From a virus (lineage: Duplodnaviria; Heunggongvirae; Uroviricota; Caudoviricetes): 36,201 bases of DNA. Made by a program: the position numbers. The first letter of the stretch is position 1. Every line of letters starts with the position of its first letter. Below are positions 11,501 to 17,500 of the stretch, piece by piece. Where the stretch lies: IMG/VR virus record IMGVR_UViG_2711768014_000012; one strand, 5' to 3'.

Positions 11501-14500
11501 CCATAACCTCAGTTGTTGTTTCAGTGCATACCCCAGCTGTTTCGGCATTTCCGCAGCAATGATGCGGTCGCGGGCATCTTCAAATGCCTGTGTCAGCGGT
11601 CCGGACAGCGGGATTTTCACCACATCAATGGGGTAACGATTTTTGCCATCAATACGCCGCATCACATGCCAGCGACCATTCGCCAGTTGCTGAATAAACG
11701 CATCCCGGAAAAGATATTTACCCACCTTCAGCACACTGCCACGGTACTGCAGTTTTCCACCACGCCGGGCCAGTCTGACCCGGGCTGTCCCCAGCTTAAT
11801 GGCGGGCAGATTGCCCCGGTTAACGCGGATCCTGGCCGTCATTTTTCCTGACGGACTGGCTTTAAACACCCGGACACGCTGACGTACCAGTTTCAGGGGG
11901 ATCCCTTTCACCTGGTTATCTCCCGCAACGGTATTCCCGGCAACCTGCCGGGTGGCAACCGAGACCGCTTTCTGTGCCACACGGTTTATCGCCCATGCGC
12001 TGGCCTGTGGCACCATACGGGTATCAAGGCTGTTCAGATTGCGGATGGCATTCTCAAGCCCCTTCATCCCACACCTCTTTACTCAATAAAGATCATTGGC
12101 TTACCGTTAAAGCGTTCATGCCGTGTGACCGTCCATTGTTGTCCGTCATAAACAACGCGATCCCCGCGCCGTGGGCGGTATCCCGAAGAAAACACCACCA
12201 GAGAGACCGCAGGTCCGGACAGAGCATTCAGCTCTGCCAGTGTTTCTCCCGGGATCACAGTCATATCGACATCATTAATCGAGGCTGTCTTTCCCATCTT
12301 TCTGACCGTGATCGCATCCATACGCGCTGCCAGCCGGGAAAAGGGATCAGACATTGAGTTTTACCGGCACTTCTTCTGCACTGGTTCCGGCATCTGCCCA
12401 GACAACCCCGACCAGCGGATCAGAGCCGCTGTTAGTCAGCTGAACTTTTCCGGACTTCAGATAAACCTTCTTACCCGTTTTCATGTCATCCGTTTTCAGC
12501 TTAGGCAGCATAAACACACCTTCGGTCAGGCCGTCGCCTGTTTCACCCTGTGGAATATCGGTCAGTGCCACCGCAAAAACATCACCCACCTGCACCAGAT
12601 CTCCGCTGCTGATGGCTGCACTGGCAACAATCGCCACCGTTTTTCCTTCTTCTACAAAATTCTTTGCCATAACTGTCTCCGCACAGCCCCGTTCAGGGGC
12701 TGATTTCAGGTACAAAAAAAGCCCTTACGGGCCATCAGAGTTGTTGTCTGCGACGTTTACGCCGTACATTTCACCAGACCGCGGTGATCAACTGGCGCGA
12801 CACCGGCGTCAATACGCACTTTCGTTGTCACGCCATCCACACTGAAGCCCTCCATCTGATCAATATATGGCGTATCCACACCGTTGAGATAAGCCACTTC
12901 AATCGTATCGGAGCCTTTTGACGCAGCCAGGTAGAAGGTGGTCTGGCTGTTATCATCAAGACGAGGCTCTGCAATAACGGTCGCAAAATCTTTCACCGGG
13001 TTAATAATACCGGCGTTAATGTCGGCCCCCTTGACACTTGAGGAGCGAATGACCTGGTTAGCAACAGACTCCATCGCCGTCGGTACCAGTACGAACGCAG
13101 GACGAATATTCAGATGACGCTCCCCCTCTTTCTGAACGCGCATCAACTGGCGGGCTTTATCCAGCGATGCCACGTCCATTGCAGCGCTATCCAGTACGTT
13201 TGCATGTTTCGCTTTATCGAACAGACTTACATTATCTGTGGAGATTTTCGGGTTAGACGTCAGAATGGCATAAACCAGATCGGCAATAGTGGATTTCGCC
13301 GCACGGCCCAGTTTCATCGGGACATCGGTCAGCATATTCAGATCATCATTGATAATGGCCTGACGGGTGATACTGAACAGCTCGCCATAGGTCGCCAGTG
13401 CAATAGTGGCCTGTTTATCTCCGGTGGTGACGTATTTATATTCCGCCCCTTCACGCACCTGACGCAGAGCACTGAAGCCCCCCATACCCACACGATGGGC
13501 AATTTTAAAATCAGACAACTGACCTTTCCGCGTCCACTGTTCATAGGTTTCAGGGGCATCTTCCCAGCCCTGCAGAATGGCTTTGTTCGCAACATCCAGC
13601 AGAATATTACCGAAGTCAGACGTACTGTGTGTGAACGCCGCACCGACCATCTGCATCGGGTTATAACTGGAAACCCCAATACCCCGTTCAGTCAGTGACA
13701 TACGGGCATATTCACGCAGGGTCATCCCGTTGTAGACATTATCACGTTCGGTTTTTTCAAATCCGGCACGCGCCATCAGCGCCTGGCGGATCCCGTCCCC
13801 CACAAAATTACCGTTTCCGGCATAAATATGAGCCGGGGTATTTTTATTGGATGGCGTGGACTCGCGCCCCATCTCGTTCAACAGCTTTTCGCGGGCCTGC
13901 TCCAGCGAACATTCAGGATCGGCAAGACACTGAGCCTGCAGCGTCTGATAACGCCCGCCAAACATGGCAAACAGATCATTAATACCGTTTACACGCGCTT
14001 TTTGCTCTGCCAGTACCTGCGCACGGATACTGTTTTCATCCACCACGGGTGCTGCTGCCTGCACTGGCGTCCGGGAGGCTGCAGGTTCATCATCCTGTAC
14101 GCGTGGAGCACTGTTGCGTGGCGGAGTAATCATGTTTCGAATGGATTCCGGCATCTTTTTAAATTCCTCTGTACGTTTTGACTGAATACATGCCATTGCC
14201 TTAACGGCTGGCGTCACCTGATCAGCAAATCCCTGTGCCAGACATTCGGCACCGGACATCCAGGTCTCATCCGCCAGCATGGCAGCAATTTCATCGGTGG
14301 TTTTCCCGGTTTTCTGTGCATAAGCGGGTAACAGAACCGCCTCAACCTTATCGAGCAGGTCGGCATAGGTGCGCATGTCCTCCGCATCACCGCCCGTAAA
14401 GCCAAATGGTTTATGAATCATCATGAAGGTGTTTTCCGGCATAATGACCGGGTTTCCCACCATCGCAATGACCGACGCCATTGACGCCGCCACACCGTCG

Positions 14501-17500
14501 ACATAAACGGTAATGGACGCACCATGTGTTTTCAGCGCATTAAAAATGGCGATGCCTTCAAAGACATCGCCACCCGGTGAATTAATATGGAGATTAATGT
14601 GGGTGATATCGCCCAGTGCATTCAGATCACTGATAAACTGCTTCGCTGTAACACCCCAGAAACCAATCTCGTCATAAATATAAATATCCGCGTCACTCTG
14701 GTGACCAGCCTGCATCCTGAACCAGGAATTATTCTTCGGACTGGTCGTCGGTGTGCTGCGGCTCCTGTCGTTTCGTTGCGGCACTGCTGCCTCCTTTATC
14801 ACTGGCCGGATCGGTATCAAATACCAGATCCAGCTTGCGGTTTTCATCAATTTCGGCCTTGCGCCGACGTTTGACATCATCCGGATTACGACCACCTGCA
14901 CGTACCCAGTCTGATTCTGTCGCCGCTCCACCACGAATCTGGATTTTCCAGGCCTCAGCCTCCTTAACAGGGTCAATCCACGGCATCACCGGTCCGGAAT
15001 ACACCGCGGTATACAGTGAAGAACGGTCAAGATCGCGGGGTAGCCTGATAACACCGGATGCCACAGCCTGTTTCAGCCATGCACGATACATCGGGCGGGT
15101 GACGGCACCAATAAACCAGTCCTGCAGGATCAGGTAGCCATCAGTAGATTCAACCAGCTCCTGACGCTGGGCGCTGTAAGTGCCGTTATAGTTGCGCGCT
15201 GTACTGGAAAAACTCAGACGACTGCCCGCCGCCACGGCACGCAACTGACCATTACGAAAAGTTTCAAGGTTAGGATTGGGGCGATCCGACTTCACCATTC
15301 CGATTTCTTCGCCGGGTTTCAGATCGTCGTAAATAATGCCTGGCTGAATGGTAAGCTCGCGTTCCTTATCCTTGCTGCCATTACCATCCGGTTCATAGCT
15401 CTGCCCGTCGCCTTTGCGGATGTACATCCCCAGAGCAGCGGCGATCCTTGCTGCAGTCAGCTCATAATCTTCATAATCTTTCAGGGCACTGAGGCGGATC
15501 AGCACACCGGACAACAAAGACGTCCCGCGCATCTGGTGCAGACGGCGAACAAATTTAAGATGCAGCATTCGCTCTGCATCCACTTCTTTGGTTTCCATCT
15601 GCCGTCCGGATACGGGACGGCTTTTATACACCAGATATTTTTCGGGACGCCCCCAGTCATCAACAAACACGCCCTGATTCAGCCTGTTGCTCTCATCACT
15701 GGTCATGGGAATAAAGTCCGGCTCGAGCGCCTCCAGCCAGAAATGAACACCGGCAGAAGGCGTCAGGCTGTTTATGCGCCCGGAAACCATCTGGGCAAAC
15801 ACCTCACCATCGCGCAGCCAGGTACGCAGCATCAGACGTTCCAGCATCGGACGGGTAAACTGCCCGGTGACTTCCGGGCTGACAGACCATTCACTCCATC
15901 GGGTGCGAATCTCCGCAGCCAGGTCACGGGCAATGGCCCCATTGCGTAATACCGGATGTGGCTCGACAATAATCCCGTTTTTCCCCACCACCCGTTCTTC
16001 CAGCTTGTCAAATACACCAATAACCAGATCGTGGTTGTTATCAAGGTAACGGGCCTGCTCACGTAACGACACGGCCCCGTACTGGCTTAACTGGTCGGCA
16101 GTTCGGTTTTCCCGCCGGCCTTTGTGTGTCCGCGTCGTTTTTACGGCCTCATAAGCCTGGATCACCGCACGGGAACGCAGCCTTGCCGCTTTCCATCCTG
16201 GTGAAAAAACGCCAATCACATCATCAAGAATTGCCATCAGAACCTCGCCAGCCGGTACCCGGGATGCCCCCGTCGTCGTGTAATCAGAGCCGCAAGGCGG
16301 CGCTCCCACTCCTGCCGTCCCTGCCGGATCTCAGATAAGTTTTCCATGGTCATCTGCTGACCATTAAAGGTGACGGATTTTCCGTCCAGCACCGCCATTT
16401 CAGCTTCCGTATAACGCTGAATCATGGCTTCAATATCATTCTGGTTCATAACCATCCTCCGGAAGTCAGCCAGGGGTTAACATCGTCAGTTACTGTTTTC
16501 TTCCGTTTTTGTTTTTTAACAGGCGTGGATACCGGTTCCGGTGAGGGTGACGGTTCGGTACTGTCCGGGACACACTCCAGCCAGGTTTCCCGGCTCGCCC
16601 ACTCCGGTGCATCCGGCCAGCGGATCTTTTCGTATCCATGCAGAATGACCAGAGCCTCGGCATACACCATCAGGTCAAAAGCTTCGTTGGCACCGCGACC
16701 CGGCTTACTCCATTTCCCGTCACTGCTCCGCTCTTCATACGTCAGTTCGTCGTAAAACCAGCTCCCCAGCCAGTCAGGGAAATGCACATAGCCGGGACCT
16801 GGCGAGTCACGCCATAACGCGTTATTCACCCGGTCTTTCAGTGCATCCGTCTGAAGAAGCCAGAGCGGCACATCACCTGCGGCCTGCGCCCGTCGGCCCG
16901 TTCGTCCGGTGTTATCAGGGAATGTACGGGTGATCAGTTTTGCGCGCCGGATGCTGTCGCCCTTAAACAGGTAAATACGTTTACCAAGGCCATCACGACG
17001 GCAACGACGCCAGAATTTATAGGCATTATCAGTGACCCCGTCTTCACCGCCGGAGTCCACCGCCATTGCCATCAGTCGCATTTGTTGAGAAGGATCGGAG
17101 GCCAGCGGCCAGCTTTTATGAAAAACATCCGTCAGCAGGACATCCCAGTCTTCCGGATAGCTGGCCGGATCAATTCGCTGGCTCTCCCCGTCGCTGTCAC
17201 CGCGCAATGACTGCGTGATGTTGTAACGATCAATAATCCAGCGTTCGCCACGGCTGCCATAGCCCGTTACCTGAACCACAAAACGGCGATGACGTCCCGC
17301 CTGCACATCCACTGTCGCCACAAGGAAATTAACGCCATCCGGCACACTGCGGGAAGGAACTGGCTCTGCCCGCTGCTCAAGCAGTTCACTTTTTCGTTGC
17401 TCCATGCTGGCGCGGGGAAGATAAGGTAATCCCCAGTCGGTATTGATAACCGTCTTGAGTGTTTCTTCACTTCCGGTTGTCTCGTATTCCTGTTCTGCAG

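What the first reader, a model, noticed from the sequence alone, without database searches (positions are those of the whole stretch)
12757..14715. Prohead protease fused to the major capsid protein in one ORF
The ORF begins with a ClpP/S14-like protease segment (…INSPGGDVFEGIAIFNALK…) and continues without a stop into a capsid-like domain, with no separate scaffold gene. This fused head organisation differs from lambda (separate C, Nu3, D, E) and implies autoproteolytic maturation. The start codon is uncertain because the first ATG after the portal stop has a weak SD.
Basis: partly seen in the sequence, partly recalled or inferred. Interest (0 to 1): 0.4.

Follow-up and report, generated by a model that had tools for sequence, protein, structure and literature searches.

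The report
Known fused protease–scaffold–capsid phage gene

Summary
One uninterrupted minus-strand ORF encodes an N-terminal ClpP-like protease and a C-terminal HK97-fold capsid protein. It lies directly after the portal gene and before a cement/decoration gene, and there is no separate scaffold or capsid gene.

It is not new. The product hits the curated NCBIfam model NF045540, [quoted passage not shown], at 985 bits (cut-off 475). It is 70% identical over its full length to the Gifsy-2 gene, whose protease and coat genes are described as fused (Effantin 2010). The DNA is 99–99.9% identical to cultured coliphages phi458, mEp460 and cdtI. It is present in 2017 of 5426 complete E. coli genomes. 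More than 100 distinct 50%-identity clusters share the full-length architecture.

One correction: the start is most likely GTG 14784, which has an AAAGGAGG Shine-Dalgarno sequence (−11.6 kcal/mol against −2.6 for the ATG). This is also the RefSeq call. It is not ATG 14715, whose Met lies inside the first β-strand of the protease and downstream of a conserved Trp-Tyr/Phe motif.

Catalytic Ser101 and His124 are invariant in 54 diverse homologs. Cleavage sites remain unmapped; two disordered linkers are the candidates. Interest is low.

The parts
12757..14784 (-). Most likely full CDS of the protease-scaffold-capsid fusion protein (675 aa plus stop at 12757-12759)
   Evidence: The ORF is open from 14976 to 12757. 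The GTG start has the best SD pairing. RefSeq starts the 99.95%-identical E. coli A14 gene at the same GTG, giving a 2028-nt CDS. An exact 675-aa database cluster, P0004, is named as the fusion protein. NF045540 scores 985 bits against a cut-off of 475.
14790..14797 (-). Shine-Dalgarno sequence AAAGGAGG, 5 nt upstream of GTG 14784, inside the 3' end of the portal gene
   Evidence: Sequence read. Duplex with the 16S 3' end is -11.6 kcal/mol, the strongest of all in-frame candidate starts.
14713..14715 (-).
   Evidence: SD pairing is only -2.6 kcal/mol. The aligned residue is Ile in 37 of 54 homologs and Met in 9. It lies in the first beta-strand (23-26) of the model. The conserved W21 and Y/F22 lie upstream of it.
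14209..14727 (-). ClpP-like (peptidase S14-type) prohead protease domain, residues 20-192
   Evidence: Pfam CLP_protease E 6.5e-36. NF045542 'head maturation protease, ClpP-related' scores 216 bits against a cut-off of 120. PDB ClpP sequence hits reach E 1e-15. Foldseek gives target TM about 0.8 to ClpP. pLDDT is above 90.
14482..14484 (-). Codon of the predicted catalytic Ser101 (in GVAASMAS)
   Evidence: It aligns with the active-site Ser motif of ClpP (alignment to 1y7o). It is invariant in 54 of 54 diverse fusion proteins.
14413..14415 (-). Codon of the predicted catalytic His124 (in MIHKP)
   Evidence: It aligns with the ClpP MIHQP motif. It is invariant in 54 of 54.
14266..14268 (-). Codon of Glu173, at the position of the third (Asp) member of the ClpP triad
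   Evidence: In the alignment to 1y7o, query E aligns with the ClpP D in 'RDNWMSA'. The position is Glu in 44 and Asp in 6 of 54 sequences.
14038..14208 (-). Linker 1, residues 193-249: two short helices followed by a disordered Pro/Ala-rich, indel-rich segment (225-244). Candidate protease/scaffold processing zone
   Evidence: pLDDT is below 50 at 225-244. This is the region of lowest conservation and most gaps and insertions. P212 (50/54) and P240 (49/54) are nearly invariant.
13864..14037 (-). Three-helix middle block, residues 250-307: putative internal scaffold, analogous to the HK97 delta domain or lambda Nu3
   Evidence: Helices at 250-273, 280-288 and 294-307 have pLDDT 87-97. The block is moderately conserved. 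There is no Pfam match above threshold; only fusion or protease-scaffold PHROGs match. The scaffold role is inferred from position and from the literature on Gifsy-2 and MD8 (PMC8508860).
13807..13863 (-). Linker 2, residues 308-326: disordered segment just before the capsid domain. Candidate site for the cleavage that frees the mature capsid protein
   Evidence: pLDDT is below 50 at 316-324. There is an indel here relative to Gifsy-2. P311 is nearly invariant at 49/54. The cleavage site itself has not been determined.
12760..13806 (-). HK97-fold major capsid protein domain, residues 327-675
   Evidence: Pfam Phage_capsid_4 E 7.9e-55 and Mu-like_gpT E 3.4e-08. There are weak PDB sequence hits to Mu GpT-domain capsid proteins. 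The model has pLDDT 90.6 and pTM 0.86. Foldseek hits HK97 Head II, the D3 virion, T5 and encapsulins at probability 1.0.
14729..16237 (-). Portal gene (lambda family) immediately upstream; its last 56 nt overlap the fusion CDS in another frame
   Evidence: Phage_portal_2 E 2.5e-81. Annotated as portal in cdtI and in E. coli A14.
12347..12670 (-). Cement/decoration protein gene (107 aa) immediately downstream
   Evidence: Pfam Phage_cement_2 (PF09956) E 2.3e-20. phrog_122 'head decoration' E 4.9e-47. It is 61% identical to the Gifsy-2 protein in the same position.

Best explanation
The gene is an ordinary, intact member of the Gifsy-2-type 'tripartite capsid gene' family of lambdoid phages. A single 675-aa precursor, most likely started at GTG 14784, carries four parts in order:
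- a ClpP-like serine protease (residues about 20-192)
- a flexible Pro/Ala linker
- a three-helix block that probably acts as the internal scaffold (about 250-307)
- an HK97-fold major capsid protein (about 327-675)

Inferred mechanism: precursors assemble around the portal into a T=7 procapsid, with the protease and scaffold parts facing inwards. The protease domains then cut the linkers, the N-terminal parts are degraded and leave, the shell expands during DNA packaging, and trimers of the downstream cement protein bind to stabilise it.

What is shown here: the domain content, both folds, invariance of the catalytic Ser and His, gene order, the start-site evidence, and family membership. What is inferred from Gifsy-2, HK97 and lambda precedent: the assembly pathway, the cleavage itself and its positions.
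For: Continuous ORF.

Family and domain matches:
- NF045540 at 985 bits against a 475 cut-off, full length
- phrog_133 full length
- Pfam CLP_protease plus Phage_capsid_4

Relatives:
- 70% identity over the whole length to the Gifsy-2 protein, and 61% for the decoration protein
- 99-99.9% DNA identity to plaque-forming phages phi458, mEp460, cdtI and Tritos, so the gene is functional
- 2017 of 5426 E. coli genomes carry it, labelled by RefSeq as this fusion protein
- more than 100 of the best 150 cluster representatives at 50% identity align in one stretch from about residue 16-20 to 672

Conservation and structure:
- Ser101 and His124 invariant, position 173 acidic in 50 of 54
- ClpP fold and HK97 fold confirmed on models
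- no other scaffold or capsid gene in the head module

Start site: SD energy, the RefSeq call, and the conserved W-Y/F motif upstream of the ATG.

Literature: Gifsy-2 protease and coat genes are fused (PMC12315714). [quoted passage not shown] Gifsy-2 is T=7 (PMC8814770). MD8 gp5 encodes protease, scaffold and MCP in a single gene (PMC8508860).
Against: No experimental data for this phage group were found on processing, and the primary Gifsy-2 paper could not be read here.

The middle block matches no scaffold family by sequence, so its scaffolding role rests on analogy.

The third triad residue is Glu rather than the canonical ClpP Asp.

Several phage records, including RefSeq NC_009514, start the gene at the ATG rather than the GTG.
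Confidence: 0.9

Rival explanations
1. The gene starts at ATG 14715, as the first reader and several phage records have it, giving a 652-aa product that does not overlap the portal gene.
For: It is the first ATG after the portal stop. It is used in the cdtI, mEp460 and phi458 records. The NF045540 profile aligns from residue 9 of that product to profile position 2.
Against: SD pairing is -2.6 against -11.6 kcal/mol for GTG 14784. RefSeq PGAP uses the GTG. The aligned residue is Ile in Gifsy-2 and MD8 and in 37 of 54 homologs. The conserved W21 and Y/F22 lie upstream. Met24 is inside beta-strand 23-26. Homologs align from query residue about 16-20.
Confidence: 0.08
2. In addition to the full-length precursor, an internal in-frame start (for example Met211, ATG 14154) gives a protease-less scaffold-capsid protein. 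This would parallel lambda Nu3 nested in gene C and would set a lower protease:capsid ratio.
For: ATG 14154 has a moderate SD-like GAGGA with a 9-nt spacer (-6.0 kcal/mol). It lies just after the protease domain. There is a lambda C/Nu3 precedent (cited in PMC8508860).
Against: Met211 is not conserved. Homologs have I, V or A there, and only 3 of 54 have any Met within 3 columns either side. The spacer is long. Nothing in the family annotation suggests nested products.
Confidence: 0.07
3. The single ORF is an accident: a decayed prophage, or a sequencing error that joined separate protease and capsid genes.
For: Database chimeras of this gene do exist. There are 1159-aa portal+fusion proteins with different junctions, and joins to terminase or tail domains.
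Against: The same fused architecture is found in the following, with no stop or frame change:
- cultured phages at 99-99.9% identity
- 2017 E. coli genomes
- Gifsy-2 and Pseudomonas MD8
- more than 100 divergent clusters

A curated family also exists for it.
Confidence: 0.01
4. The ClpP-like domain is catalytically dead and serves only as extra scaffold; a host protease, or no protease, matures the head.
For: The third triad position is Glu rather than Asp. Fusion to a capsid subunit is hard to reconcile with canonical heptameric ClpP rings (inference).
Against: Ser101 and His124 are invariant in 54 of 54 proteins at 35-53% identity, and the acidic residue is kept in 50 of 54. That is the signature of selection on catalysis. 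The domain meets the NF045542 'head maturation protease, ClpP-related' cut-off.
Confidence: 0.03

Closest known systems
Salmonella phage Gifsy-2 'tripartite capsid gene' (STM1033 region; NC_010393 22471..24561; Effantin et al. 2010, Virology 402:355)
   Same: The gene order is the same: portal, fusion, small decoration gene, tail genes. The proteins are 70% identical and 83% similar across protease, middle block and capsid parts. The decoration proteins are 61% identical. Gifsy-2 is described as having fused prohead protease and coat genes (PMC12315714), a T=7 capsid (PMC8814770) and a trimeric protein at 3-fold axes (PMC8538268).
   Different: The N-terminal leader and start codon differ: Gifsy-2 is annotated with an ATG 33 residues before the conserved core. 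There is a 7-residue indel in linker 2 and a 3-residue indel in linker 1. The host is E. coli rather than Salmonella.
NCBIfam NF045540 'ClpP-like prohead protease/major capsid protein fusion protein' (scaf_prot_MCP1), as annotated in E. coli RefSeq genomes and in phages cdtI, mEp460, phi458, Tritos and Ayreon
   Same: The window protein scores 985 bits against a 475 cut-off over the whole profile. The DNA is 99-99.9% identical to these phages and 99.95% identical to the E. coli A14 prophage.
   Different: Essentially nothing differs. Only the start-codon choice varies between records (ATG in phage records, GTG in PGAP genomes). The sister model NF045541 (scaf_prot_MCP2) is matched below its cut-off (400 against 525 bits).
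Pseudomonas phage MD8 gp5 and MD8-like phages (F10 and others)
   Same: A single gene encodes protease, scaffold and MCP, followed by a head decoration gene (PMC8508860). It is 57% identical across the full length. The SWY, catalytic and capsid motifs are shared.
   Different: Different host genus, a longer N-terminal leader, and extra residues in the capsid A-domain region.
Phage HK97 gp4 protease plus gp5 (delta domain fused to capsid protein)
   Same: The capsid domain has the HK97 fold. An N-terminal extension of the capsid protein is presumed to act as scaffold and to be removed by a phage protease. The gene sits directly after the portal (established HK97 biology, summarised in PMC8508860).
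   Different: In HK97 the protease is a separate gene of the herpesvirus-assemblin-like S78 type (my own knowledge), not ClpP-like. HK97 stabilises its shell by covalent cross-links rather than by a cement protein (PMC8538268). Here the protease is also part of the capsid polypeptide.
Phage lambda head genes C/Nu3, D, E
   Same: A lambdoid genome with lambda-family terminase, portal and tail genes. The protease belongs to the same broad ClpP/SppA-type fold group. A decoration protein binds after expansion (PMC8538268).
   Different: Lambda has protease-scaffold (C/Nu3 nested) and capsid (E) as separate genes (PMC8508860). The window protein matches the SppA model only weakly (22 bits against a 155 cut-off). 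The decoration protein belongs to PF09956, not, from my own knowledge, the gpD family.

Membership tests
NCBIfam NF045540 ClpP-like prohead protease/major capsid protein fusion protein (Gifsy-2 type) | Whole-protein score above the curated cut-off with end-to-end profile coverage | tested here: met
   985.2 bits against a cut-off of 475; residues 9-651 match profile positions 2-651 of 652.
NCBIfam NF045540 ClpP-like prohead protease/major capsid protein fusion protein (Gifsy-2 type) | N-terminal ClpP-like protease and C-terminal HK97-fold capsid protein in one uninterrupted ORF | tested here: met
   ORF without a stop. Pfam domains. Both folds confirmed.
NCBIfam NF045540 ClpP-like prohead protease/major capsid protein fusion protein (Gifsy-2 type) | Position in the head module: directly after the portal, followed by a cement/decoration gene, with no separate scaffold or capsid gene | tested here: met
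NCBIfam NF045540 ClpP-like prohead protease/major capsid protein fusion protein (Gifsy-2 type) | The precursor is proteolytically processed so that only the capsid part remains in the mature T=7 head | not testable with these tools
   This needs virion mass spectrometry or N-terminal sequencing. Only candidate linkers were identified.
Peptidase family S14 (ClpP) | ClpP alpha/beta fold | tested here: met
   Foldseek target TM 0.72-0.82 and rmsd 1.5-4.8 A over about 170 columns to many ClpP structures. Pfam CLP_protease at 124 bits against a cut-off of 20.2.
Peptidase family S14 (ClpP) | Ser-His-Asp catalytic triad | tested here: inconclusive
   Ser101 and His124 align with the ClpP motifs and are invariant. 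The Asp position holds Glu173 (Glu 44, Asp 6 of 54). It is acidic but not the canonical residue.
Peptidase family S14 (ClpP) | Membership of bona fide cellular ClpP (equivalog models), with a tetradecameric barrel working with a Clp ATPase | tested here: not met
   TIGR00493 clpP scores 58.7 bits against a cut-off of 308.6, and all other cellular ClpP models are far below their cut-offs. Oligomeric state and ATPase dependence are not testable here. Labels such as 'ATP-dependent Clp protease proteolytic subunit' in some sources are therefore over-annotations.
HK97-fold major capsid proteins | HK97 fold (spine helix, P-domain, A-domain, N-arm) | tested here: met
   The model of residues 308-675 has pLDDT 90.6. 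Foldseek gives probability 1.0 to HK97 Head II, Prohead II, D3, T5 and encapsulins, with 349 hits at E<=0.001. Pfam Phage_capsid_4 scores 187 bits against a cut-off of 27.
HK97-fold major capsid proteins | HK97-type Lys-Asn isopeptide chainmail | not tested
   The cross-link residues were not examined. The presence of a cement protein gene suggests non-covalent stabilisation instead, as stated for Gifsy-2 in PMC8538268.
Lambda-type head module (separate C/Nu3, D, E) | Protease-scaffold and capsid protein encoded by separate genes; S49/SppA-type protease | tested here: not met
   There is a single fused gene. The SppA model TIGR00706 scores 22.3 bits against a cut-off of 155.
Internal scaffold (HK97 delta domain / lambda Nu3-like) | Sequence or profile similarity of the middle block (residues 193-330) to a described scaffold family | tested here: not met
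   There is no Pfam hit above threshold (best E 0.024, 14.9 bits against 27). Only PHROGs of fusion or protease-plus-extension proteins match. 'Works like a scaffold' remains an inference from its helical structure and position.

The most novel reading that the evidence does not exclude
Each of the roughly 415 capsid subunits of a T=7 procapsid would carry its own ClpP-like protease. That is a 1:1 stoichiometry, and it is hard to reconcile with canonical heptameric ClpP rings. The enzyme may therefore act in an unusual non-ring or capsomer-templated state, cutting in cis or on neighbours at linker sites marked by the three nearly invariant prolines (P212, P240, P311). Dual initiation at GTG 14784 and ATG 14715 could also give two isoforms. 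None of this is excluded by the evidence, and none of it is specifically indicated either.
Probability: 0.12. Interest if true: 0.35.

Novelty: already known. Interest (0 to 1): 0.1.

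Why it matters
It matters little as a discovery. The architecture was described for Gifsy-2 in 2010, it has a curated NCBI family, and it is one of the commonest prophage head genes in E. coli.

Its practical value is for annotation. Phage records label this one gene inconsistently: 'putative protease', 'major head protein', 'head-tail preconnector protein Nu3', or 'head maturation protease'. A capsid-protein detector reportedly failed to find an MCP for Gifsy-2 (PMC8814770). Many records also appear to start the gene 23 codons too late.

The unmapped cleavage sites, and the question of how a ClpP-like domain works when tethered 1:1 to capsid subunits, remain modest open questions.

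Tried and rejected
1. The primary Gifsy-2 paper (PMID 20427067) is not held. I relied on how three held papers describe it and on direct sequence comparison.

2. A PDB sequence search of the capsid part found only weak Mu GpT-domain hits (E 2e-4), so no close solved structure exists. The cement protein has no solved relative by sequence.

3. The Foldseek search with the full-length model was swamped by ClpP chains. The capsid part had to be modelled separately.

4. Programmed frameshift joining portal and fusion: database proteins of 1158-1159 aa suggested it, but their junctions all differ. These are independent 1-nt indels or errors, so the idea was rejected.

5. Conserved internal start (Nu3-like) at Met211: rejected as a family feature.

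6. The CBASS/prohead-protease preprint concerns a different protease-scaffold protein and is not relevant.

7. Literature searches for proteomics of mEp460, cdtI and related phages found nothing on processing. One search failed on syntax.

8. The apparent low-GC islands in the window turned out to be masked N runs.

9. The middle block was searched alone against Pfam with no significant family found.

Full report
**Observation**

The feature is real, but it lies on the minus strand. A single open frame runs from 14976 down to the stop at 12757-12759. The portal gene (14729-16237, minus strand) lies immediately upstream and a 107-codon gene immediately downstream. None of the six masked N runs in the window (782-910, 1313-1637, 2561-2725, 5152-5437, 5781-6011, 20991-21367) is near it. 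There is no hidden stop or frameshift.

**Domain content**

It also has a weaker Mu-like gpT match.

NCBIfam gives the decisive hit. NF045540, [quoted passage not shown], scores 985 bits against a curated cut-off of 475 and covers the whole profile. The N-terminal part separately passes NF045542, "head maturation protease, ClpP-related". All models for cellular ClpP fall far below their cut-offs. PHROG 133 matches end to end.

**What it is related to**

- The DNA is 99-99.9% identical to cultured lambdoid coliphages phi458, mEp460, cdtI, Tritos and Ayreon, and about 77% identical to long-tailed Stx2 phages.
- The window from 9757 to 17715 is 99.95% identical to a prophage of E. coli A14, and about 96% identical to cdtI over 11.7 kb.
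- At least 80% of the gene is present in 2017 of 5426 complete E. coli genomes, where RefSeq names it [quoted passage not shown].
- The protein is 70% identical (83% similar) across its whole length to the Gifsy-2 protein encoded at NC_010393 22471-24561. The downstream small protein is 61% identical to its Gifsy-2 counterpart.
[quoted passage not shown] 2010)" (PMC12315714). [quoted passage not shown]
- Pseudomonas phage MD8 gp5 is 57% identical by tblastn. Its authors describe it as encoding protease, scaffold and MCP in a single gene (PMC8508860).
- I could not read the primary Gifsy-2 paper. My recollection that it reports roughly 12 Å cryo-EM of procapsids and capsids, fitted with HK97 capsid protein and lambda gpD, comes from memory only.

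**Breadth of the family**

An exhaustive search of 1.84 billion cluster representatives gave 7050 hits at E≤1e-30. Among the best 150, more than 100 are proteins of 640-740 aa at 35-60% identity that align in one stretch from about query residue 16-20 to 672.

Among phage records, 1648 have a match to some part of the protein, mostly the protease. Eighty of them cover at least 80% of it. The fused form is thus a minority arrangement among records with such a match, but it is well represented.

**Start codon**

- ATG 14715 pairs with the anti-Shine-Dalgarno sequence at only -2.6 kcal/mol.
- An in-frame GTG at 14784 has AAAGGAGG five bases upstream and pairs at -11.6 kcal/mol, the best of all in-frame candidates. 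No other start codon lies between the two.
- RefSeq starts the near-identical E. coli A14 gene at exactly this GTG, giving a 2028-nt CDS. The resulting 675-aa protein is a named database cluster (P0004).
- In a five-way alignment, the motif S-W-F/Y is invariant and lies upstream of the ATG. Gifsy-2 and MD8 have Ile where the window has that Met.
- In 54 diverse fusion proteins, position 21 is Trp in 42, position 22 is Tyr or Phe in 47, and position 24 is Ile in 37 and Met in only 9.
- In the structure model, residues 23-26 form the first β-strand of the protease domain.

The likely CDS is therefore 12757-14784, overlapping the last 56 nt of the portal gene. Phage records, including RefSeq NC_009514, use the ATG.

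**Anatomy (numbering from the GTG)**

The AlphaFold model built on the 54-sequence alignment has mean pLDDT 86.8.

| Residues | Feature |
|---|---|
| 1-18 | Disordered and unconserved |
| 20-192 | ClpP-like domain |
| 203-219 | Two short helices |
| 225-244 | Disordered, Pro/Ala-rich, indel-rich |
| 250-273, 280-288, 294-307 | Three confident helices |
| 308-326 | Disordered |
| about 327-675 | Capsid domain, with a long spine helix at 483-510 |

Foldseek matches the N-terminal domain to many ClpP structures (target TM 0.72-0.82, rmsd about 2-3 Å). A separate model of residues 308-675 (pLDDT 90.6, pTM 0.86) matches HK97 Head II and Prohead II, the D3 virion, T5, other phage capsids and encapsulins at probability 1.0.

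Ser101 (in GVAASMAS) and His124 (in MIHKP) align with the ClpP active-site motifs and are invariant in all 54 sequences. The position of the ClpP triad Asp is Glu173 here, and is Glu in 44 and Asp in 6 of the 54.

The middle block has no significant Pfam match on its own. It matches only PHROGs built from fusion proteins or from proteases with C-terminal extensions. Its scaffolding role is therefore an inference.

**Gene context**

On the minus strand the order is:

1. small terminase (18548-19042)
2. large terminase (16446-18548)
3. head-tail adaptor (16237-16455)
4. portal
5. the fusion gene
6. cement/decoration protein (12347-12670; PF09956, phrog_122)
7. a PF13856 protein (12079-12354)
8. 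tail genes Z, U, V, G/T, H, M, L, K, I, J

There is no other candidate scaffold or capsid gene.

**Mechanism**

Shown here: one polypeptide combines a ClpP-like domain whose catalytic residues are under strong selection, a helical middle block flanked by two flexible linkers, and an HK97-fold shell protein. A cement protein gene follows.

Inferred from Gifsy-2, HK97 and lambda precedent: precursors co-assemble on the portal into a T=7 procapsid with the N-terminal parts inside. The protease domains cut within the linkers. The N-terminal fragments leave. The shell expands on DNA packaging, and cement trimers bind.

The cleavage sites are unknown. The two disordered linkers are the best candidates, and each contains a nearly invariant proline (P212 50/54, P240 49/54, P311 49/54).

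**Alternatives considered**

- **Conserved internal start (Nu3-like):** not supported. Met211 has a moderate SD but is not conserved.
- **Programmed portal-fusion frameshift:** not supported. The 1158-1159-aa database proteins that join the two genes have different junctions, so they are independent 1-nt indels or errors.
- **Accidental fusion:** excluded by conservation across phages, genomes and genera.
- **Dead protease:** unlikely, given the invariant Ser and His.

**Verdict**

The feature is already known: a member of the Gifsy-2-type tripartite capsid gene family with a curated NCBI model and RefSeq product name. The useful residue is an annotation point, namely the likely GTG start and the inconsistent product names in phage records, plus the still unmapped processing sites. 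Interest is low.

Noticed in passing
window 782-910, 1313-1637, 2561-2725, 5152-5437, 5781-6011, 20991-21367: There are six runs of N (1513 bases in total). They create false 'low-GC islands' in composition profiles. They also lie inside the tail genes J, K and L and next to the DNA methylase gene, so ORFs listed across them are read through unknown codons.
   Followed up: yes
window about 14729-14976 (portal 3' end / fusion 5' end); proteins P0006-P0017, P0043, P0070: More than a dozen singleton database proteins of 1158-1159 aa join portal and protease-capsid in one frame. The junctions all differ, so they are independent 1-nt deletions or assembly errors. These are possible because the fusion frame happens to stay open 64 codons upstream of its GTG start. 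They are not a programmed frameshift. Other chimeras join the fusion protein to terminase or to tail L or J domains.
   Followed up: yes
window 12757-14784 and the homologous gene in phage records: The same gene at 99% or higher identity is labelled 'putative protease', 'Major head protein', 'head-tail preconnector protein Nu3', 'head-tail preconnector protease C', 'head maturation protease' or 'ATP-dependent Clp protease proteolytic subunit' in different records. Phage records start it at the ATG, while PGAP bacterial genomes start it at the GTG 69 nt upstream.
   Followed up: partly
window 12079-12354 (-): This 91-aa gene sits at the head-tail joining position and carries three conflicting names: Pfam PF13856 'Gifsy-2: ATP-binding sugar transporter from pro-phage', PHROG 153 'minor tail protein', and RefSeq 'DNA breaking-rejoining protein'. 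Judging by its position it is probably a head-tail connector or completion protein.
   Followed up: no
window residues P212, P240, P311 of the fusion protein (codons at 14149-14151, 14065-14067, 13852-13854): Three prolines are kept in 49-50 of 54 diverse homologs although they sit in otherwise poorly conserved or disordered linker segments. They may be landmarks of protease recognition or cleavage sites.
   Followed up: partly
window 21507-22559 (-), 23842-24636 (-), 32839-33663 (+): Other prophage genes seen while surveying: an N6/N4 DNA methylase, an antiterminator Q homolog that also hits a DnaJ-type CXXCXGXG zinc-finger motif, and a DUF2303 protein. Genuinely AT-rich stretches at about 23-24 kb and 34-35 kb contain ORFs with no Pfam match (23137-23562, 33801-34634, 35213-35632).
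   Followed up: no
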